A stretch of 64,000 nt of DNA from a virus, in UHGV virus genome UHGV-1373362; one strand, 5' to 3'. The notes beneath the pieces are model-generated. The model ran no database searches. It was not told the origin of the DNA and saw only the letters and a program-made list of their open reading frames with translations. A program made the translations under genes and the position numbers. Of the stretch, positions 3,187 to 18,502 are shown piece after piece; position 1 is the stretch's first letter, and each line of letters begins with the position of its first letter.

Positions 3187-3448
3187 ACTATAAGGGGCTA
3201 AATAAGATAACGCATCTGATGAGTCTTTGAAAATTAAGACGAAACACCTTCAATTAGGTGTCATGCGAGTGTTATTCATACAGTTGAAATAACGCTATTT
3301 GATTGCTAATACTCATGGTATGTGAATATAGTGAGTATTTAATTTAATATTAAGACAGTCTAGGAGTCTATAAAATTGTTACCGAAGAGACTAGAATGAA
3401 ACTTCTTTAATTAGAAGTCTAACAACTGAGTTAAAGATTAGTTCTATC

Positions 3449-6912: not shown

Positions 6913-7457
6913 GGGCTTGACAGGTTTTGACAAGTAATTACAAGGTAGGAAGACGTGTAGAGTTGGCACCAACTCTTATAAAATGATGCAAACAATAACT
7001 GGAGAAACTGAAGGTTTCAGAATGGCAGCCTAAGCTGCTGGCTTATTAGATATATCTAATTAAGTCGGGTTAATGGAGAAGACCTAGAAACAGAAGAGGT
7101 GTGGGAAGAAGCATTATAAAGCAGCCTACTTAACTTGAAAGCCAAAGGTTAGTAAAGCTGAAATTCTCTATGTCATTAAACAGGAATGCATGGTCTTAGG
7201 GTTGACTTACCCTTAATTATTGCACGTTCTCCAACGTAAATGGAGTGGTGGGGAGGATGACTTCGGTCAATCCAAGTTTGATAGTTTGTAATTTGGTCTA
7301 GTAAGGTTTGTGCTAAATTCCTGTCCTAGTAATCAAGGCACAGTCCAACAAAACTATCTACATGCCAGAACTCACTGGCTGATGTAATATAAATGAGACA
7401 CACGTTATCTTCTTATTGAGGATTATTTGGACGACGGTTCGAATCCGTCCAGGTCCA
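6913..7457 (+). ncRNA. candidate tmRNA (ssrA-like) or tRNA-like (Y-RNA-like) structured RNA
   Basis: 3' end GGACGACGGTTCGAATCCGTCCAGGTCCAC gives a T-arm (GACGG/CCGTC, loop TTCGAAT) followed by the acceptor 3' strand CAGGTCC+A. This is the same layout as the E. coli tmRNA 3' end. The complementary 5' strand GGGCTTG lies at 6913-6919, directly after the preceding stop codon. A short internal frame ...GFRMAA-TAA at about 6990-7033 ends in Ala-Ala, as tmRNA tag peptides do. About 780 nt here are noncoding. Confidence 0.3.
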
Positions 7458-7695
7458 CTAATGGATTAACGCCTATAATGAGTGCACTTGTTATAGGATG
7501 CTAATGATGCTACTTAGGAATAACTACTCCACAGGTAGGTAATTTAGAAACTTCTCAAAGTCATTGCAAGGGTGGAGAGAAGAAACTTATTACTGGTTTG
7601 GGAAATTTAAACCTATAGTGCTGGAGGCTAAATGATTTAGTAATGGGTTCGATTCCCTGTTAATCCACAGAACTAACTAATCAAATAATTAAAAC

Positions 7696-8663: not shown

Positions 8664-10412
8664 ATGGAATTTAGTAAGAAGGTTAAGAGCCTTGATAGGG
8701 CTGAGCAATCTCCTGAGAACAATGCGTTCATTAGGGAAGGGTTGAAAGAGTCTAATGTGACTCAAAGTGGTAATGGTGCTAAAAAGTATAGTACCAGTAA
8801 TGATGTATTTGTGGATAACTTTGCATCTATATCTAAGTTTGCAGAACCCCGTTCTTATGAGGATATAGCAAAAGATATGTACAAGTTGTGGAGTGTAAAT
8901 CCAGAAAAGTGTGTTAAGTTAGCCATCTATATTAGGATGATAACTAGGCAAACACAAGTACTCGTAGATAACAAGGTTTCTACAACTGAAGATGTACAAA
9001 GAGGACAGGGATTAAAGAATGAAGGTATTTTACGGTTTATTTGGTTGTCTATATATCATAACCAAGCATTCGTAGCCAATCTGCCATTCTTCATTAGCGC
9101 TGGTTCTTGGAAGGACATATTTGAGATGATGAGCCTTGATTTACAGTATCATGGTTGGGAAGGTCATAAATTGAATTGGAATTTCTTAAGTTCAACTGTA
9201 TTAGCCGGTTTAGCTAATGAAAATACATGTGAGCTAGTAAAGAAATATCTGCCTTCTATTAGATCTAGCAAAGACTGTGTTACTTTAGCTTCTAAGGCTA
9301 GGAGTATTGTAGGCAAATATATGGCTAATCGTATATTTGGGAAGAAGGGGGAAGAGAAGACAGAAGATACGATGAACCACATTCATCGTAAGTATCGTAA
9401 GTTCAAACAGAGTGGTACTGCACATGTTTGGCAGCAATTAATCGGACAAGGTAGAATGCTTGAAATTGATTTCAATACCATTCATGGACGTGCTTTAAGC
9501 CTATTGGTAGGCTCTAAATTCTTGAAAAATCAGGGATTGGTAGAGAAGTATTACCAATGGCTTGCATCCCGCAAAACGGTTAAATATACTGGATTTGTGC
9601 ATGAGCTGTTTGAACCACTTGGAAATAAATATTGGGCCTGCCCATTACCAGATTATCAGGAAATCACTATTAATAAGCAGTTTGAGCAATTAGTTGAAAC
9701 TGCCCGTAAGGATATGGACACTAACAGTAGGTTATTAGTCGTTAGAGACATTTCTAGCTCTATGACTTCACAGGCTGTGGGCAGTAACATGTCATCTTAC
9801 GCTATTGGTAAGGCAATGGCTCTCTATTTCTCTGCACTATTGGATGGTCCATTTAAGGATGCCTATGCTACATTTAGCAATACTTGTAAGCTTTGTAAAT
9901 GGCAAGGTAAGACTCCTATAGAGAAGTGGACAAACGATAATGATAGTAGATTTGGAAGTACCAACCTCCAATCTGTAGCAGATATGTTTGTCAAACTAAG
10001 AACTACAATGGGAGTATCCGAGAATGAGTTTCCAACAGGTGCACTGCTTATTAGTGATGGTGATTTTAACTGGTGTGGTACTGATGTGGCCAACTTTAAG
10101 GCATTTAGAGATAAACTACTTAAAGGTGGGTTTAGTGTGGAGTATGTAAACAACTTCAAATTAATCCTTTGGGATATTCCTAATGGATTCTATGGTAAGG
10201 GTAGACCTACTGTATTTGAAGATTTTGCTGATGCTCCAAATAACTTCTATATGAGTGGTTATGATCCAGCTGCTATAGCATTTATTATGGGAACTAAGGC
10301 ATTTAAAGCTACCCCCAAGAATGCAACAGAACTGTTCAATGCAGCTATGAACCAAACACTACTCAATATGGTAGTAATTCCTAAAGAGTATTATAAACGT
10401 AAAAAGAAGTAA
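8664..10412 (+). CDS. vWA domain protein, possibly TROVE/Ro60-like
   Basis: 582 aa. C-terminal von Willebrand A domain with MIDAS-like motif VVRDISSSM. Length and architecture (large N-terminal domain plus C-terminal vWA) resemble Ro60/TROVE-type proteins. The TROVE part is not verifiable by eye. Confidence 0.5.
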   Translation: MEFSKKVKSLDRAEQSPENNAFIREGLKESNVTQSGNGAKKYSTSNDVFVDNFASISKFAEPRSYEDIAKDMYKLWSVNPEKCVKLAIYIRMITRQTQVLVDNKVSTTEDVQRGQGLKNEGILRFIWLSIYHNQAFVANLPFFISAGSWKDIFEMMSLDLQYHGWEGHKLNWNFLSSTVLAGLANENTCELVKKYLPSIRSSKDCVTLASKARSIVGKYMANRIFGKKGEEKTEDTMNHIHRKYRKFKQSGTAHVWQQLIGQGRMLEIDFNTIHGRALSLLVGSKFLKNQGLVEKYYQWLASRKTVKYTGFVHELFEPLGNKYWACPLPDYQEITINKQFEQLVETARKDMDTNSRLLVVRDISSSMTSQAVGSNMSSYAIGKAMALYFSALLDGPFKDAYATFSNTCKLCKWQGKTPIEKWTNDNDSRFGSTNLQSVADMFVKLRTTMGVSENEFPTGALLISDGDFNWCGTDVANFKAFRDKLLKGGFSVEYVNNFKLILWDIPNGFYGKGRPTVFEDFADAPNNFYMSGYDPAAIAFIMGTKAFKATPKNATELFNAAMNQTLLNMVVIPKEYYKRKKK

Positions 10413-10413
10413 T

Positions 10414-11208
10414 ATGATTTCAATGAACACTATGCTTGCTAAGGTAGAGCACGCTGGATCATCCTTTAATAAGATGATTGCAGAGTACACACTATTCTTT
10501 AAGAACAAGCAATCAATGTTTAGAGGATTCAAGAAAACCTTTAAACCAAGAGAGGGTTTCAATGAAGACTCAAGGTACATGGGAACCGTTTTGGTAACAA
10601 CTACGGTAAATGAGAAGCTGGATTGGTTCGAAGAGAATGCAATACCTTATCTAAAGGATGTATTCTCAGTAGAGGCCACCAACTCAAGAGGTGCTGAACG
10701 TACAGAACTAGTAGTAGATGGTATATCATTTGGTAAACTAACTGCACTTGATTTGATGCGTCTAAAGACTATCCTTACTAATAAGGATATGGAATCTATG
10801 TATTCTAACATCCCAGTTCGTTCTGATTCTGAAGTATGGGAACCCTGCACTAATCCAGAATATGAAGGACGTGAGGTTTATCAAACTCCGATGACTGTTG
10901 GCGTGGTAAGAACATCAGAATCAGAGGAAGTAATCCTTAAAGATCCAAATCTTGATCCTGCCCATCTTCCTTCAAACTATAACGCTAAGGTTACAGTTAA
11001 GAAGAAAACAGTGGACACTGGTGATTATACATCACAAATGTACACGGGTGAGTGGACTCAAAGAGAGCGTGCTGAGTTACTAAGGAGAAGAAGTAAACTT
11101 CTCGCTGCAGTAACAGTAGCATTAAAGAAGATCAACGACAATGGAGTAGATCCTCAGAACTTGGACGTTGAATGTCTGATTGAATACTTGCACGGTAAAA
11201 AGAAATAA
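10414..11208 (+). CDS. hypothetical protein
   Basis: 264-aa ORF directly downstream of the vWA protein gene, likely co-transcribed. Confidence 0.45.
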   Translation: MISMNTMLAKVEHAGSSFNKMIAEYTLFFKNKQSMFRGFKKTFKPREGFNEDSRYMGTVLVTTTVNEKLDWFEENAIPYLKDVFSVEATNSRGAERTELVVDGISFGKLTALDLMRLKTILTNKDMESMYSNIPVRSDSEVWEPCTNPEYEGREVYQTPMTVGVVRTSESEEVILKDPNLDPAHLPSNYNAKVTVKKKTVDTGDYTSQMYTGEWTQRERAELLRRRSKLLAAVTVALKKINDNGVDPQNLDVECLIEYLHGKKK

Positions 11209-11356
11209 AACAAAATATTGACTAAAGCTTCAGCTTAAGCCTCAGCATTACTAAATCCTAGATATTTAGCATAAGCATTGGGTCAAGAGCTTTAGCTTTA
11301 GCTTTAACGTAGAATGACAGTAAGCTACCTGATAATAAATTATCCACCTATTAAAC

Positions 11357-11410
11357 ATGGGTTCGAATCCCATACGCCCCTCTATTTCTATTATTAACTA
11401 CATGGGGCGT
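11357..11410 (+). other. tRNA-like fragment: T-arm plus acceptor-like hairpin (permuted order)
   Basis: T-arm ATGGG-TTCGAAT-CCCAT, then ACGCCCC, a 23-nt loop, then perfectly complementary GGGGCGT. No 5' acceptor strand lies upstream. Confidence 0.3.
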
Positions 11411-11518
11411 TGGTGAAGGGGTTTAACACGATAGGCTATAATAAAGCTTCACTTTAAAGTTACTGAAAGCATTCTACACATCTAGGGGTTATTACTGAGG
11501 ATTTTTGGGGTAATCTCT

Positions 11519-11592
11519 AGGGGTTTAACTCAATTGGTTAGAGTACATGAGTGTTAATCATGGTGTTGGGGGTTCGAGTCCCCCAACCCCTA
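11519..11592 (+). tRNA. tRNA-Asn (GTT)
   Basis: Acceptor AGGGGTT/AACCCCT, anticodon loop GTGTTAA, T-arm GGGGG-TTCGAGT-CCCCC. Confidence 0.8.
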
Positions 11593-11692: not shown

Positions 11693-11788
11693 AAAGGGAT
11701 GCTGGAATGGTATACAGGCTATCCATTGATGATAGTTTACACAATTCTAGGAAGTGTATGTCTGAGGGTTCGAATCCCTCTCCCTTTA
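11693..11788 (+). tRNA. tRNA, class-II-like with long variable arm; anticodon loop reads TTG (ambiguous)
   Basis: Acceptor AAAGGGA/TCCCTTT (7 bp perfect). T-arm GAGGG-TTCGAAT-CCCTC. Anticodon stem CTATC/GATAG with loop CATTGAT. About 28-nt variable region, 96 nt total. Non-canonical. Confidence 0.5.
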
Positions 11789-12060
11789 CATCTTGAAGAA
11801 TTTTTCATTTTTCTTGTCATTAAAGGGTTATTTACCTGTGAAGGCCAGTAACCCATTTTTATGTATTATTAATATTCCGTATCTATATACAACTTTAGTA
11901 TTAATATTATGATATTATATGTGGCATAAGTTTGTAATAACACTAATTACACATTTTAACATTAATATGTTTGTGGAGTCATAAAGAAGCAGTATCTTTG
12001 TGTCCATAACCGTTGGGATAACGGGAATGTGTTTGTGTTTTATTTATTCCCATTGTTGAG

Positions 12061-12728: not shown

Positions 12729-12812
12729 CGCAGAGTCGAGAAGTGGTATCTCACTAGTCTCATAAGCTAGAGCATCCGAAAGATGTCGTAGGTTCGATTC
12801 CTACCTCTGCAA
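12729..12812 (+). tRNA. tRNA with CAT anticodon (Met/fMet/Ile2 type) and an unusual long variable arm
   Basis: Acceptor CGCAGAG/CTCTGCA with C1-A72 mismatch, which is initiator-like. D-arm GAGA-AGTGGTA-TCTC. Anticodon arm CTAGT-CTCATAA-GCTAG. 17-nt variable hairpin. T-arm GTAGG-TTCGATT-CCTAC. Confidence 0.6.
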
Positions 12813-12828
12813 CTAATTTAATATATTA

Positions 12829-13165: not shown

Positions 13166-13186
13166 TGAAGGGAACAGACAGCAAAC
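13166..13186 (+). promoter_or_regulatory. conserved motif TGAAGGGAAC-nACAGCAAAC (copy 1 of 4)
   Basis: Near-identical 20-nt motif also at 14932, 16902 and 19554, each ahead of a tRNA sub-cluster. Confidence 0.4.
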
Positions 13187-13349
13187 ATCTTCATCTAATA
13201 ATTGAACTTCTAATTGACCGTGGGCGAACATCCCATAAATGTTCTAAGCTGTGAATAGCCCCTACTATGCTGGAACAAGTATAGTGTCGATTATCCTAAA
13301 TTGGGTGGATAAAAGACATAAAATAAAACTCCCGTGTTCCCTGTTTCAT

Positions 13350-13821: not shown

Positions 13822-13897
13822 GGGAGTTAGCTCAGTTGGTTGGTAGCTTCGGACTGTTAATCCGATGGTCGTGGGTTCGAGTCCCAGAGGGGTGACA
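13822..13897 (+). tRNA. tRNA-Asn (GTT)-like, probable pseudo-tRNA (acceptor stem does not pair)
   Basis: Canonical D-arm, anticodon arm TCGGA-CTGTTAA-TCCGA and T-loop TTCGAGT. But the 5' GGGGAGT and 3' AGGGGTG strands are not complementary. Confidence 0.4.
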
Positions 13898-14931: not shown

Positions 14932-14953
14932 AGTGAAGGGAACTTACAGCAAA
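14932..14953 (+). promoter_or_regulatory. conserved motif GTGAAGGGAACTTACAGCAAAC (copy 2)
   Basis: Same motif as at 13166, 16902 and 19554. Followed by AATTGACCG about 30 nt downstream, as in copy 1. Confidence 0.4.
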
Positions 14954-15007
14954 CAATCATAGTATCAATCTTTTAAATTGACCGACTAAACATGTTCCCT
15001 GTTCCTT

Positions 15008-16214: not shown

Positions 16215-16285
16215 GAGTGTGAGGTGTACTGGTGGCATAAGCGACTGTCTATCGTGAGGAGGGGTTCGATTCCCACACATTCGGC
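16215..16285 (+). tRNA. degenerate tRNA-like sequence (possible Asp-GTC pseudo-tRNA)
   Basis: T-loop GGGGTTCGATTCCC and a candidate anticodon loop CTGTCTA. The D-arm and acceptor do not fold canonically. The track ORF 16224..16478 overlaps it, and the true CDS start is probably 16296. Confidence 0.25.
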
Positions 16286-16901: not shown

Positions 16902-16923
16902 TGAAGGGAACTTACAGCAAAAC
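16902..16923 (+). promoter_or_regulatory. conserved motif TGAAGGGAACTTACAGCAAAAC (copy 3)
   Basis: See copies at 13166, 14932 and 19554. Confidence 0.4.
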
Positions 16924-16953
16924 TTATCTAAATTCAATTGGTGATAGAAAGAC

Positions 16954-17001
16954 GTGGGTTCGAATCCCACCTATAACCGTCAAAGTCCTAATGGGTTATA
17001 G
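16954..17001 (+). other. tRNA-like fragment: T-arm plus acceptor-like hairpin (permuted order)
   Basis: T-arm GTGGG-TTCGAAT-CCCAC, then CTATAACC, a 15-nt loop, then GGTTATAG (8-bp perfect complement). Same architecture as 11357-11410. Confidence 0.3.
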
Positions 17002-17051
17002 TCGTCTAGTGGATAGGATGTATTAGAAATAGGCATAGTTCCCTGTTGTTT

Positions 17052-17134
17052 GCCGTCTTCGCATAGTGGTTGATTGCACTGGATTTGTAATCCAGCTTCG
17101 AAAGAACACGTCAGTTCGAATCTGACAGACGGCT
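17052..17134 (+). tRNA. tRNA-Thr (TGT) with unusually long variable arm
   Basis: Acceptor GCCGTCT/AGACGGC, anticodon arm CTGGA-TTTGTAA-TCCAG, 14-nt variable region, T-arm GTCAG-TTCGAAT-CTGAC. Confidence 0.7.
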
Positions 17135-17156
17135 CTAGTCTCATTGTCGTAAGGCG

Positions 17157-17586: not shown

Positions 17587-18501
17587 ATGGGAGCAGGTAG
17601 TTATTCATATGCAGCTTATTCTGCCATATCTGATGCAAGAGGGCTTGCGAGTGCAACGACAGAAGCCCTATTTAAGAATAGGCACATTTCTGTAGACGCT
17701 GACATTAAAACCTCAAATGTTAATGCAAGACTCTTTAATACAGAAGTAAAGAAAGAAGCTATTAACGTGGGTGTTAGAGAGTGTAGAGATACTGAGGAAC
17801 ATCCTGATGTTACCCCAATCATCATTGCTCTTGACGTTACAGGTTCAATGCGTAATACACCCCATACAATGCTTAGAGACCAATTCCCTAAGATAATGGG
17901 TGTCTTACAACAATTAAATGTTAAAGATCCCCAAATCTTGTTTATGGCAGTAGGGGATCACGAGTGGGATAGATACCCCATTCAGGTGTGTCAGTTTGAA
18001 TCTGATACTACTAAGCTGGTAGATTCTCTACAAACTCTAGTATTAGAGGGGGGAGGTGGTCCAAATTATGGTGAGAGTTACCTATTAGCTTGGTTAATAG
18101 CTGGGTATCATACTGAAACTGATGCATGGTACAAGAGGGGTAAAAAGGGTTACTTATTTACCATTGGTGATGAGGAAACTCTTAGAGAGGTTGATGAGGA
18201 ATACTTATCGGATGGATTGGGTTATCAGAAAGGCGCTGGAGTTATTACAGCTAAAGAGGCCTTAAAGAAAGCTAAGGAACAGTATAACGTATTTCACATT
18301 CACATTACTAATGGAAGCCGTGGTTCAACTCCACGACCATCTTGGAGAAGTTATTTGGGTCAAAATGTTCTAACATCTGACTCTAAGGACATTCATACTG
18401 TAATCGGGGAGGTCATTAGTAAACATGAAGGGATTAACAACCTGGAAGTTACTGATGAAAACTCTCCATCTAATCAAGAAGAAGCAAATTATACTTATTA
18501 A
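17587..18501 (+). CDS. vWA domain protein (TerY-like?)
   Basis: MIDAS motif IIIALDVTGSM near the N-terminus of a roughly 305-aa protein. Start taken at the ATG after the upstream stop; the in-frame ATG at 17545 would overlap the upstream gene. Confidence 0.6.
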   Translation: MGAGSYSYAAYSAISDARGLASATTEALFKNRHISVDADIKTSNVNARLFNTEVKKEAINVGVRECRDTEEHPDVTPIIIALDVTGSMRNTPHTMLRDQFPKIMGVLQQLNVKDPQILFMAVGDHEWDRYPIQVCQFESDTTKLVDSLQTLVLEGGGGPNYGESYLLAWLIAGYHTETDAWYKRGKKGYLFTIGDEETLREVDEEYLSDGLGYQKGAGVITAKEALKKAKEQYNVFHIHITNGSRGSTPRPSWRSYLGQNVLTSDSKDIHTVIGEVISKHEGINNLEVTDENSPSNQEEANYTY

Positions 18502-18502
18502 G

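What the first reader, a model, noticed from the sequence alone, without database searches (positions are those of the whole stretch)
11357..11410. Recurring T-arm plus acceptor-hairpin tRNA-like fragments in permuted order (three copies)
At 11357-11410, 16954-17001 and 7431-7470 a canonical T-arm (stem plus TTCGAAT loop) is followed by a 7-8-nt acceptor-3'-like strand. A short loop then precedes a perfectly complementary 5'-like strand (ACGCCCC...GGGGCGT, CTATAACC...GGTTATAG, AGGTCCA...TGGATT). No 5' half lies upstream. This order (3' half before 5' half) is what permuted tRNA and two-piece tmRNA genes look like. It could also be tRNA 3'-end mimicry, such as attP-like cores or processing signals.
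Basis: seen in the sequence. Interest (0 to 1): 0.65.

Follow-up and report, generated by a model that had tools for sequence, protein, structure and literature searches.

The report
Phage Y-RNA genes that mimic tRNA
Two of the three "back-to-front tRNA fragments" are real, conserved genes for small RNAs with a rearranged tRNA-like fold. They most likely partner a Ro60-like protein encoded just upstream in this gut phage; the third is simply the end of an ordinary tmRNA gene.

Summary
Sites 1 (11357-11410) and 2 (16954-17001) are confirmed. Each has a T arm, then a 3' acceptor strand, a short linker, a complementary 5' acceptor strand and a canonical D arm. Site 1 has at least 12 distinct homologues in Lak-like and ~180-kb gut phages. 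In these, 240/240 helix cells pair and 15/20 pairs show compensatory changes.

Site 3 (7431-7470) is not permuted. It is the 3' end of a one-piece tmRNA (6913-7460, 80.5 bits), and its 5' strand lies 520 nt upstream.

The T / acceptor-hairpin / D order, closed by pairing of the two flanks, is the architecture of YrlA-type bacterial Y RNAs. ORF 8664-10412, 935 nt upstream of site 1 on the same strand, folds like Ro60 (TROVE plus vWA).

Site 2 sits in a cassette, AAG-stem-UUACAGCAA...stem-CUGU. The window holds four such cassettes, each ending 7 nt before a tRNA. The same cassette flanks Ro-like genes in phages of Mycobacterium, Leptolyngbya, Bacillus and Enterococcus.

Both elements fail Rfam's YrlA threshold and lack an exact GNCGAA motif, so I call them a new variant of a known kind. 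The cassette also carries the signature of Dictyostelium Class I RNAs, which is unexpected.

The parts
8664..10412 (+). Ro60-like protein gene (582 aa; helical TROVE-like ring domain plus C-terminal vWA domain)
   Evidence: Pfam DUF2828 and DUF7788. PHROG 850 'RNA-binding protein'. AF2 model, mean pLDDT 75. Foldseek against PDB gives full-length top hits to TROVE domain 9kop (E 4e-8) and Ro60 1yvr/2i91/1yvp/9nep (E 1e-7 to 1e-6). tblastn hits mycobacteriophage 'Ro-like RNA binding protein'.
10414..11208 (+). DUF7873 gene, always found between the Ro60-like gene and the site-1 RNA in the ~180-kb phage group
   Evidence: Pfam DUF7873, E 1e-28. Synteny in about 20 loci. Function unknown.
11218..11305 (+). 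Highly conserved 5' domain of the site-1 RNA (TTGACTAAAGC...GCATTGGGTCAAGAGC); role unknown
   Evidence: About 80-95% identical from Lak phages to the ~180-kb phages. TTGACT/AGTCAA can pair, with one compensatory change in L005 (TCGACT/AGTCGA). GGUCAAGAG and UUGACUA resemble the vertebrate Y-RNA Ro-binding helix GGUCCGA/UUGACUA. That resemblance rests on my own knowledge and was not tested.
11309..11323 (+). 5' strand of the long bulged closing stem of the site-1 RNA (GTAGAAT-GA-CAGTAA)
   Evidence: Pairs with 11460-11477. Equivalent stems with different sequences occur in all 11 lineages tested.
11331..11344 (+). Small hairpin just upstream of the tRNA-like core (GATAA-TAAA-TTATC)
   Evidence: A hairpin at this position in every lineage, each with a different sequence. 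It sits where YrlA has its 'V' stem-loop (PMC4201824).
11347..11435 (+). Site 1: circularly permuted tRNA-like core. Order: anticodon-stem 3' strand 11347-11351, V 11352-11356, T arm 11357-11373, acceptor 3' strand 11374-11380, N73 11381, linker 11382-11403, acceptor 5' strand 11404-11410, D arm 11413-11429, anticodon-stem 5' strand 11431-11435.
   Evidence: 12 distinct homologues: 240/240 cells paired, 15/20 pairs with changes on both sides, 0/500 shuffles reach this. RNAalifold recovers the same fold. Model R1 scores 80 bits here.
11460..11477 (+). 3' strand of the closing stem (TTACTG-AAAGC-ATTCTAC), with a conserved bulge (UGAACG in most relatives)
11481..11518 (+). 3' hairpin between the site-1 RNA and tRNA-Asn (which starts at 11519)
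   Evidence: RNAalifold consensus hairpin. Alignment.
16905..17044 (+). Site 2: a cassette holding a permuted tRNA-like core. Closing stem AGGGAAC 16905-16911 / GTTCCCT 17038-17044; motif TTACAGCAA 16912-16920; T arm 16954-16970; acceptor-like hairpin 16971-16978 / 16994-17001; D arm 17004-17019. It ends 7 nt before tRNA-Thr (17052).
   Evidence: Orthologues L041, L064 and L046 show compensatory changes in the closing stem, T stem and acceptor. Rfam YrlA aligns T-AS-D at 16951-17019, but at only 12.1 bits. R1 scores 24.2 bits.
13169..13342 (+). Cassette of the same family (AGGGAAC-AG-ACAGCAA...GTTCCCT), 7 nt before tRNA-Ile
14937..15000 (+). Cassette of the same family (64 nt), with an anticodon-arm-like hairpin TCAAT-CTTTTAA-ATTGA, 7 nt before tRNA-Arg
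   Evidence: Rfam Dicty_Class_I_RNA aligns end to end at 17.6 bits.
19557..19646 (+). Cassette of the same family, 7 nt before tRNA-Gln
   Evidence: Rfam Dicty_Class_I_RNA aligns end to end at 23.9 bits.
6913..7460 (+). One-piece tmRNA. Its 3' T arm and acceptor strand are the finding's 'site 3'.
   Evidence: Rfam RF00023, 80.5 bits, model positions 1-374. Acceptor GGGCTTG/CAGGTCC with G3:U70.

Best explanation
Sites 1 and 2 are genes for Y-RNA-like non-coding RNAs of the YrlA type. They belong to the Ro60-like ring protein encoded at 8664-10412, at the head of the phage's tRNA array.

How each RNA is built (shown by covariation):
- The sequences on either side of the element pair with each other to form a closing stem.
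- At site 1 this stem is long and bulged. At site 2 it is 7 bp, followed by the motif UUACAGCAA.
- The stem carries a tRNA-like module whose strands run in circularly permuted order: T arm, acceptor-like hairpin closed by a variable loop, then D arm.
- So the module is open where a tRNA has its anticodon loop and closed where a tRNA has its ends.

How it probably works (inferred from studied bacterial Y RNAs):
- The closing stem and adjacent motif dock the Ro60-like protein.
- The tRNA-shaped module (T arm stacked on the acceptor hairpin, elbow locked by D-loop GG and the T loop) recruits tRNA-recognising enzymes, or tethers the Ro ring to them.
- The phage thereby steers processing, quality control or decay of structured RNAs, plausibly its own 24 or more tRNAs and its tmRNA.
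- Site 1 has a 7-bp acceptor helix plus a discriminator base. It may therefore be cut by RNase P and receive CCA, giving a two-piece RNA, as reported for Mycobacterium smegmatis YrlA.

Site 3 is unrelated: it is the 3' end of a normal tmRNA.
For: 1. The fold is under selection. All 25 site-1 family members keep the acceptor 7/7, the anticodon-like stem 5/5 and the T stem 5/5. Among 12 distinct sequences, 240/240 cells pair and 15/20 pairs are compensatory, against 0/500 shuffles. The flanks form a bulged stem in all 11 lineages.

2. The architecture equals YrlA: T stem-loop, acceptor-like stem-loop, D stem-loop, closed by an outer stem, with a further stem-loop upstream of T (PMC4201824; Rfam YrlA structure line).

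3. Context. The Ro60-like fold of ORF 8664-10412 is supported by Foldseek hits to Ro60 and TROVE at E 4e-8 to 1e-6 over the full length. Site 1 lies 935 nt downstream on the same strand. The gene order Ro-like, DUF7873, element recurs in about 20 loci.

4. Cross-detection. A model built only from the site-1 core finds the mycobacteriophage Krypton555 YrlA at 37.3 bits, E 3e-13. Rfam YrlA itself finds that RNA at 38.3 bits. It lies next to the annotated 'Ro-like RNA binding protein' gene.

5. The site-2 cassette (stem, ACAGCAA, stem) also lies beside Ro-like genes elsewhere: 3 copies in Krypton555, 5 in tandem in Leptolyngbya phage Lbo-JY46, 3 each in Bacillus phage Thrax1 and Enterococcus phage Ben. 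Some of these enclose a T-AS-D core. In a bacterial genome scan, the only 3 loci of 120 with a Ro-like gene have the motif within 250 nt upstream of it, on the same strand.

6. The linker closing the acceptor hairpin varies from 5 to 130 nt. That fits a dispensable or excised loop.
Against: - Neither element reaches Rfam's YrlA cut-off of 69 bits. Site 2 scores 12.1 bits (E 7.9) and site 1 gives no hit.
- The GNCGAAN0-1G motif that defines YrlA 5' regions is not present exactly. The nearest matches are GUCAAGAG/GUCGAGAG in the 5' domain and UGAACG on the 3' strand.
- No Ro-like gene was found within 6 kb of the Lak phage homologues.
- Site 2 lies 6.5 kb from the Ro-like gene, beyond the 4 kb used by Chen et al.
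- Many cassettes in relatives keep a canonical 7-nt anticodon loop (Thr, Asn). A pure mimic would not need one.
- Every cassette ends exactly 7 nt before a tRNA, which hints at a role in cis for that tRNA.
- There are no expression, binding or processing data.
Confidence: 0.65

Rival explanations
1. The cassettes are cis-acting 5' leader modules for the tRNA that follows 7 nt downstream. The tRNA-shaped decoy or the closing stem would recruit or position RNase P or other maturation enzymes, or protect the precursor, independently of the Ro60-like protein.
For: All four cassettes in the window end exactly 7 nt (GUUNNUU) before a tRNA 5' end. The same holds in relatives. Site 1 is followed by tRNA-Asn after a hairpin.
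Against: In Krypton555 and Lbo-JY46 the same cassettes stand in tandem next to the Ro-like gene with no tRNA following them. Most tRNAs in the arrays have no cassette. This reading does not exclude Ro binding; the two could coexist.
Confidence: 0.15
2. They are true circularly permuted tRNA genes. The precursor would be circularised or ligated at the anticodon-arm junction and then opened at the acceptor end by RNase P and 3' processing, yielding functional tRNAs. This is known only from red and green algae and Thermofilum.
For: In relatives, joining the pieces restores perfect 5-bp anticodon stems with U33 and R37 loops (Thr-UGU, Asn-GUU; junction at 29/30). Site-2 orthologues conserve AUUCAAU, a UCA anticodon-like loop. 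The 7-8-bp acceptor plus N73 is competent for RNase P.
Against: At site 1 no consistent loop or anticodon can be reconstructed across orthologues. The site-2 anticodon stem is weak (TATTA with TGGTG or CGGTA) and does not covary. I saw no bulge-helix-bulge motif and no ribozyme hit in the flanks. The permuted Thr and Asn copies duplicate normal genes in the same arrays. Cassettes with the same flanks carry only a hairpin. The T-plus-acceptor stack is 13 bp instead of 12 at site 2.
Confidence: 0.08
3. They are two-piece (split) aminoacylatable RNAs acting on the ribosome, analogous to two-piece tmRNA from permuted ssrA genes.
For: The gene order (T arm and 3' acceptor strand first, 5' strand second) is that of permuted ssrA. 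Rfam tmRNA_permuted aligns weakly at 11357-11410. M. smegmatis YrlA is cut by RNase P and gains CCA (PMC4201824).
Against: The score is 12.5 bits against a cut-off of 47. There is no G3:U70 pair. A true D stem is present, unlike tmRNA. Candidate tag-like frames (..YLA*) are not conserved in frame between Lak and the window. The phage already has a one-piece tmRNA.
Confidence: 0.07
4. They are decayed leftovers of tandem tRNA duplications, or chance juxtaposition of one tRNA's T arm with the next tRNA's D arm.
For: tRNA-tRNA junctions in the arrays score 15-25 bits with model R1. Chen et al. warn about dimeric tRNAs.
Against: Acceptor, anticodon-like, T and closing stems all show compensatory changes across distant phages. 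Conservation extends from Lak megaphages to ~180-kb phages.
Confidence: 0.02

Closest known systems
YrlA-type bacterial and phage Y RNAs (Rfam RF02553; Chen et al. 2014, PMC4201824)
   Same: Encoded near a Ro60/TROVE gene on the same strand. The 5' and 3' flanks pair. The internal module has a T stem-loop, an acceptor-like stem-loop and a D stem-loop in that order, with tRNA-invariant bases. A further stem-loop lies upstream of T. A 7-bp acceptor helix occurs in M. smegmatis YrlA, which RNase P cuts. They are already reported in 22 phages.
   Different: Both elements score below the Rfam cut-off, and there is no exact GNCGAAN0-1G motif. The partner protein is a divergent DUF2828-type Ro paralogue. 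Site 1 carries an extra, highly conserved 85-nt 5' domain and a true 5-bp anticodon-like stem. Several copies per genome are embedded in a tRNA array, each 7 nt upstream of a tRNA. The cassette motif is UUACAGCAA.
Dictyostelid Class I RNAs (Rfam RF01414; Kjellin et al. 2021, PMC7919456)
   Same: A short stem joins the 5' and 3' ends. The motif (C)CUUACAGCAA follows directly after the 5' stem strand. AAG lies before the stem and CUGU after it. The interior is variable. The Rfam model aligns end to end on two window cassettes.
   Different: Scores are 23.9 and 17.6 bits against a cut-off of 41.5. The host is a phage rather than an amoeba. Interiors reach 200 nt and may hold a tRNA-like core. There is no DUSE promoter. 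The known amoebal partner is an RRM protein (Rnp1A/CIBP), not Ro60. Common descent was not tested.
Circularly permuted tRNA genes (Cyanidioschyzon merolae, some green algae, Thermofilum pendens); my own knowledge
   Same: The 3' part lies upstream of the 5' part. The acceptor strands are joined by a short linker. The junction falls in or near the anticodon arm.
   Different: I found no bulge-helix-bulge motif and no consistent restored anticodon at site 1. No splicing endonuclease is known in bacteria or phages. The context is a Ro60-like gene.
Two-piece tmRNA from permuted ssrA genes (alpha-proteobacteria, some cyanobacteria)
   Same: The T arm and 3' acceptor piece are encoded before the 5' acceptor piece, and the intervening loop is excised.
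   Different: No G3:U70 pair, no tag frame, and a true D stem is present. The Rfam score is far below the cut-off.

Membership tests
YrlA Y RNA (RF02553 / Chen et al. 2014) | Encoded within about 4 kb of a Ro60/TROVE-domain gene, on the same strand | tested here: met
   Site 1 starts 935 nt after the stop codon of ORF 8664-10412. That ORF's model matches Ro60 and TROVE structures at E 4e-8 to 1e-6 over the full length. Site 2 is on the same strand but 6.5 kb away. Lak homologues have no detectable Ro-like gene within 6 kb.
YrlA Y RNA (RF02553 / Chen et al. 2014) | T stem-loop, acceptor-like stem-loop and D stem-loop in this order, with tRNA-like invariant bases, closed by pairing of the flanks | tested here: met
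   100% of cells paired and 15/20 pairs compensatory. Loop GGTTCGAATCC and D-loop GG are invariant. Flank stems are shown.
YrlA Y RNA (RF02553 / Chen et al. 2014) | GNCGAAN0-1G motif near the 5' end | tested here: not met
   No exact match. The nearest are G(A/G)GUC(A/G)AGAG in the 5' domain (L005: GUCGAGAG) and UGAACG on the 3' strand. The Krypton555 YrlA has GGUCGAAG on its 3' side.
YrlA Y RNA (RF02553 / Chen et al. 2014) | Rfam covariance model score at or above the gathering cut-off (69 bits) | tested here: not met
   Site 2 scores 12.1 bits, E 7.9. Site 1 gives no hit. Control: the YrlA hit (38.3 bits) downstream of the annotated Ro-like gene in mycobacteriophage Krypton555 also scores below the cut-off.
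YrlA Y RNA (RF02553 / Chen et al. 2014) | Bound by Ro60; modified by TruB and DusA; for 7-bp stems, cut by RNase P with CCA added | not testable with these tools
   Needs immunoprecipitation, modification mapping and RNase P assays.
Circularly permuted tRNA gene | Joining the two pieces restores a canonical anticodon arm (5-bp stem, 7-nt loop, U33, R37) with a conserved anticodon | tested here: not met
   At site 1 the stem is restored, but no junction gives a consistent loop or anticodon across orthologues (AUA, UAA, UUA, UAG, UGU...). Site 2 is inconclusive: the loop AUUCAAU is conserved, but the stem is weak and does not covary. Some cassettes in relatives do meet this feature.
Circularly permuted tRNA gene | Bulge-helix-bulge motif, or another defined splicing or ligation signal, at the junction | tested here: inconclusive
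   I found none by inspecting the flanks. No intron or ribozyme family reached E 10 in the flanks. No dedicated BHB search was run.
Two-piece tmRNA | G3:U70 alanine identity pair, tag reading frame, and an Rfam tmRNA_permuted score of at least 47 bits | tested here: not met
   All acceptor pairs are Watson-Crick at position 3:70. There is no frame conserved between Lak and the window. The score is 12.5 bits.
Dictyostelid Class I RNA (RF01414) | A short terminal stem, the 11-nt motif CCUUACAGCAA directly after the 5' strand, AAG before the stem and CUGU after it | tested here: met
   Window cassettes read gaAGGGAAC-UUACAGCAA...GUUCCCU-GU. More than 60 distinct cassettes occur in relatives. The features are taken from PMC7919456. 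The actual RNA ends were not tested.
Dictyostelid Class I RNA (RF01414) | Rfam score of at least 41.5 bits; length 42-65 nt; DUSE promoter | tested here: not met
   Scores are 23.9 and 17.6 bits. Site 2 is 140 nt long; only 14937-15000 (64 nt) falls in range. DUSE does not apply to a phage.
One-piece tmRNA (site 3) | Rfam RF00023 score of at least 47 bits over the whole model, and an acceptor stem with G3:U70 | tested here: met
   80.5 bits, model positions 1-374, at 6913-7460. GGGCTTG/CAGGTCC with G15:T54.

The most novel reading that the evidence does not exclude
The module 'AAG, short stem, (C)UUACAGCAA ... stem, CUGU' may be an ancient, portable protein-docking unit. It would be shared by Y RNAs of phages carrying DUF2828/TROVE-type Ro paralogues and by the Class I RNAs of dictyostelid amoebae, which were thought unique to that group. 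If so, Class I RNAs would be Y-RNA-like partners of a Ro-type protein, or were acquired from bacteria or phages. The phage versions would show that the module can carry cargo ranging from a bare hairpin to a complete permuted tRNA body.
Probability: 0.25. Interest if true: 0.8.

Novelty: new variant of a known kind. Interest (0 to 1): 0.55.

Why it matters
- It extends Ro60/Y-RNA systems to Lak-like megaphages and abundant ~180-kb gut phages of Bacteroidota. There the Ro-like gene heads the tRNA array and several Y-like RNAs are interleaved with tRNAs.
- These RNAs are invisible to tRNA finders and to the Rfam YrlA model, so phage annotation misses them.
- They offer a natural series of circularly permuted tRNA bodies, with break points from position 26/27 to 31/32. 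That series is useful for asking what tRNA enzymes recognise.
- The shared signature with Dictyostelium Class I RNAs gives a testable lead on the partner and function of an orphan eukaryotic RNA class.

Tried and rejected
1. Permuted group I intron producing a circular tRNA. The flanks together are about 220 nt and contain P7/R/S-like strings. But the covarying flank helices are nested, not interleaved like P3/P7, and no intron family hit appeared at E up to 10. Site-2 flanks are far too short.

2. Hammerhead, hairpin, twister, pistol or HDV-like ribozyme plus RtcB ligation. The bases at the junction are not conserved, core motifs are absent, and there were no Rfam hits.

3. A minus-strand or plus-strand small ORF, or a tmRNA tag, in the conserved 5' domain. 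Stop codons intervene and the frame is not preserved between Lak and the window.

4. ARAGORN on artificially re-joined halves. It calls a tRNA for almost any junction, so it does not discriminate.

5. Sequence searches of the Ro-like protein against PDB sequences, as a single sequence and as a profile. Nothing was found; only the fold comparison worked.

6. AlphaFold-database fold search, to ask whether Dictyostelium has a DUF2828 or Ro-like protein. The library was unavailable.

7. Bacterial genome scan with ACAGCAAN{10,40}GGTTCRANTCC. The result was mostly noise.

8. Consensus structure of the 5' domain. It is too conserved to resolve.

9. Literature searches found no report of permuted tRNA genes in phages.

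Full report
**What the window is.** The window is AT-rich (35-41% GC). It carries 24 ARAGORN tRNA genes between 11519 and 24824, all on the + strand, plus a tmRNA and a RAGATH-1 hammerhead. Its nearest database relatives over the site-1 region are the Prevotella Lak megaphages (72.9% over 11217-11430). Many IMG/VR contigs of about 150-190 kb share the same gene order.

**Checking the observation.**
- Of 26 T-arm hairpins on the + strand, only these two have a 7-nt complement within 45 nt. The expected number is 0.19 and P(at least 2) is 0.02.
- Site 3 is different. Rfam places a one-piece tmRNA at 6913-7460 (80.5 bits, whole model).
- The tmRNA's 5' strand GGGCTTG (6913-6919) pairs with CAGGTCC (7450-7456), including G3:U70. 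So the 5' half does lie upstream.
- TGGATT is the start of another structured RNA (7462-7669). Its ends pair as GGATTAAC/GTTAATCC.

**Site 1 is a conserved gene.**
- Two pattern scans of IMG/VR, one for the D arm and one for an upstream block, plus the Lak records, gave 25 elements, 12-13 of them distinct.
- Every element keeps a 7/7 acceptor helix between the upstream 3' strand and the downstream 5' strand. Every one also keeps a 5/5 T stem.
- Every element has a 5/5 helix between the 5 nt upstream of the variable loop and the 5 nt after the D arm. This is an anticodon-like stem that closes the permuted cloverleaf.
- On an alignment of 12 distinct sequences, 240/240 cells pair and 15 of 20 pairs change on both sides. 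All 7 acceptor pairs and all 5 closing pairs covary. No shuffle out of 500 reaches this, and slid controls fall to 33-57% paired.
- The linker between the acceptor strands ranges from 5 to 130 nt.
- Beyond the core, the upstream and downstream flanks form a long bulged stem in all 11 lineages examined. The sequences differ, but a 3'-strand bulge (UGAACG in most) is conserved.
- An 85-nt block 5' of that stem is the most conserved part of all. I could not resolve its structure.

**Why site 1 is not a decoding permuted tRNA.** The D arm is of the type seen in ordinary phage tRNA-Cys, Gln, Glu and Trp. But no fixed junction yields a canonical 7-nt loop or a conserved anticodon across orthologues. 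I considered a permuted group I intron, small ribozymes plus ligase, a tmRNA-like tag and a reverse-strand ORF. I rejected each; the reasons are listed under Tried and rejected.

**The Ro60 link.**
- ORF 8664-10412 matches Pfam DUF2828 and DUF7788, and PHROG 850 'RNA-binding protein'.
- Sequence searches against the PDB found nothing.
- An AlphaFold2 model (pLDDT 75; helical N-terminal domain plus alpha/beta C-terminal domain) matches a TROVE domain structure and Ro60 structures over its full length (E 4e-8 to 1e-6, probability 1.0). vWA domains follow for the C-terminal part.
- tblastn also reaches the mycobacteriophage 'Ro-like RNA binding protein' genes.
- Chen et al. (PMC4201824) described YrlA RNAs in over 250 bacteria and 22 phages. 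They are encoded within 4 kb of Ro60 on the same strand. They consist of a T stem-loop, an acceptor-like stem-loop and a D stem-loop, often with another stem-loop upstream of T.
- M. smegmatis YrlA has a 7-bp acceptor helix, is cut by RNase P and receives CCA.
- Site 1 fits this picture. It lies 935 nt downstream of the Ro-like gene on the same strand, and the order Ro-like, DUF7873, element recurs in about 20 loci.

**Controls for the YrlA assignment.**
- In mycobacteriophage Krypton555, Rfam YrlA hits a T-AS-D element just downstream of the Ro-like gene at 38.3 bits. Its structure line is outer stem, T, AS, D, outer stem.
- A covariance model built only from the site-1 core (R1) finds that same element at 37.3 bits (E 3e-13). 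It finds site 2 at 24.2 bits.
- Caveat: junctions between neighbouring tRNAs also reach 15-25 bits.
- Rfam YrlA aligns site 2 in the right register, but at only 12.1 bits. It does not report site 1.
- The exact GNCGAAN0-1G motif is absent.

**Site 2 and the cassette family.**
- Site 2 lies inside a unit bounded by AGGGAAC (16905-16911) and GTTCCCT (17038-17044). TTACAGCAA follows directly after the 5' strand.
- Orthologues in L041, L064 and L046 change the closing stem (AGAAGGC/GCCTTCT, AGAAGAC/GTCTTCT), the T stem and the acceptor in a compensatory way.
- The window has four such cassettes: 13169-13342, 14937-15000, 16905-17044 and 19557-19646. Each ends exactly 7 nt before a tRNA.
- Relatives have dozens. 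Their interiors range from one anticodon-arm-like hairpin to complete permuted tRNA bodies.
- In those permuted bodies the break lies at 26/27 to 31/32. Joining the pieces would restore perfect Thr-UGU or Asn-GUU anticodon arms.
- The same 'stem, ACAGCAA, stem' units lie directly beside Ro-like genes in Krypton555 (3 copies), Leptolyngbya phage Lbo-JY46 (5 in tandem), Bacillus phage Thrax1 and Enterococcus phage Ben. Some of these enclose a T-AS-D core.
- In a noisy scan of bacterial genomes, the only three loci with a Ro-like gene have the motif within 250 nt upstream of it, on the same strand.
- I therefore read the cassettes as the Y RNAs of DUF2828-type Ro proteins, and site 2 as a YrlA-type member.

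**An unexpected resemblance.**
- Rfam's Dictyostelium Class I RNA model aligns end to end on two window cassettes (23.9 and 17.6 bits, below the cut-off of 41.5).
- Class I RNAs are defined by four features: a short terminal stem, an 11-nt motif next to the 5' strand (the Rfam consensus reads CCUUACAGCAA), a conserved AAG start and a CUGU end.
- They were reported as unique to dictyostelids (PMC7919456).
- The phage cassettes show all four features at the DNA level.
- Whether this reflects common descent, transfer, or a shared protein partner is open.

**Mechanism, and how firm each step is.**
- Shown: the permuted tRNA-like fold and the closing stems are conserved, and a Ro60-like gene is linked to them.
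- Inferred from studied Y RNAs: the stem and motif dock the Ro-like ring. The tRNA-shaped module engages tRNA enzymes, or tethers the ring to them. The 7-8-bp acceptor hairpin may be opened by RNase P.
- Main rival: a cis role in maturation of the tRNA 7 nt downstream. This is not exclusive of Ro binding.

**Verdict.** Two of the three copies are real, and the 'permuted' description is correct. The best-supported identity is a new variant of YrlA-type Y RNAs in gut megaphage-like genomes. The third copy is an ordinary tmRNA 3' end.

Noticed in passing
window 7462-7669 (+): An unassigned structured RNA lies directly after the tmRNA. Its ends pair (GGATTAAC/GTTAATCC), a T-loop-like GGGTTCGATTCCC sits at 7645-7657, and the fold z-score is -3.4. 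Positions 7504-7669 are about 85% identical to unannotated DNA of Bacteroides PhiCrAssBcn crAss-like phages. No Rfam family matches.
   Followed up: partly
window 6913-7460 (+): A phage-encoded one-piece tmRNA that is unusually long: 548 nt against a 374-position model. ARAGORN missed it. A possible tag ends ...FRMAA.
   Followed up: partly
window 3352-3424 (+): A RAGATH-1 hammerhead ribozyme scoring above the Rfam cut-off (69 bits).
   Followed up: no
window 13169-13342, 14937-15000, 19557-19646 (+): Three more cassettes of the form AAG-stem-NNACAGCAA...stem-CUGU. Each ends exactly 7 nt before a tRNA (Ile, Arg, Gln). Cassette 14937-15000 contains an anticodon-arm mimic with loop CUUUUAA, although the window has no tRNA-Lys(UUU) gene.
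   Followed up: partly
window 11218-11305 (+): An 85-nt block upstream of the site-1 stem is more conserved than the tRNA-like core, from Lak phages to the ~180-kb phages. It contains repeated TTAGC/AGCTTTAGC units and a UUGACUA...GGUCAAGAG pair reminiscent of the vertebrate Y-RNA Ro-binding helix. Its structure and role are unresolved.
   Followed up: partly
L059 6660-6798 and 6888-7005; L032 4201-4319; L041 10188-10330 (relatives): Cassettes whose two tRNA pieces would rebuild perfect anticodon arms (Asn-GUU, Thr-UGU, an AUG loop). The strand break lies at 28-29/30, inside the anticodon stem. They are redundant with normal tRNA genes in the same arrays.
   Followed up: partly
window 11693-11789, 12729-12813, 17052-17135 (+): Oversized tRNA calls: Ile 97 nt, Met 85 nt, Thr 84 nt. 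They have insertions in the variable region or elsewhere, and the Rfam tRNA score is reduced (Ile 40 bits).
   Followed up: no
window 13827-13888 and 16215-16283 (+): Partial or weak tRNA-like matches that ARAGORN did not call (33.8 and 25.1 bits). They may be degenerate tRNAs or further tRNA-like modules.
   Followed up: no
L087 (Bacillus phage Thrax1) and L088 (Enterococcus phage Ben): In unrelated phages too, the DUF2828/Ro-like gene sits at the edge of a large tRNA array. This suggests a general functional link between phage Ro-like proteins and phage tRNA sets.
   Followed up: no
window 18425-19546 (+): An adenylosuccinate synthetase-like ORF (Pfam E 1e-34) is embedded in the tRNA array.
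   Followed up: no
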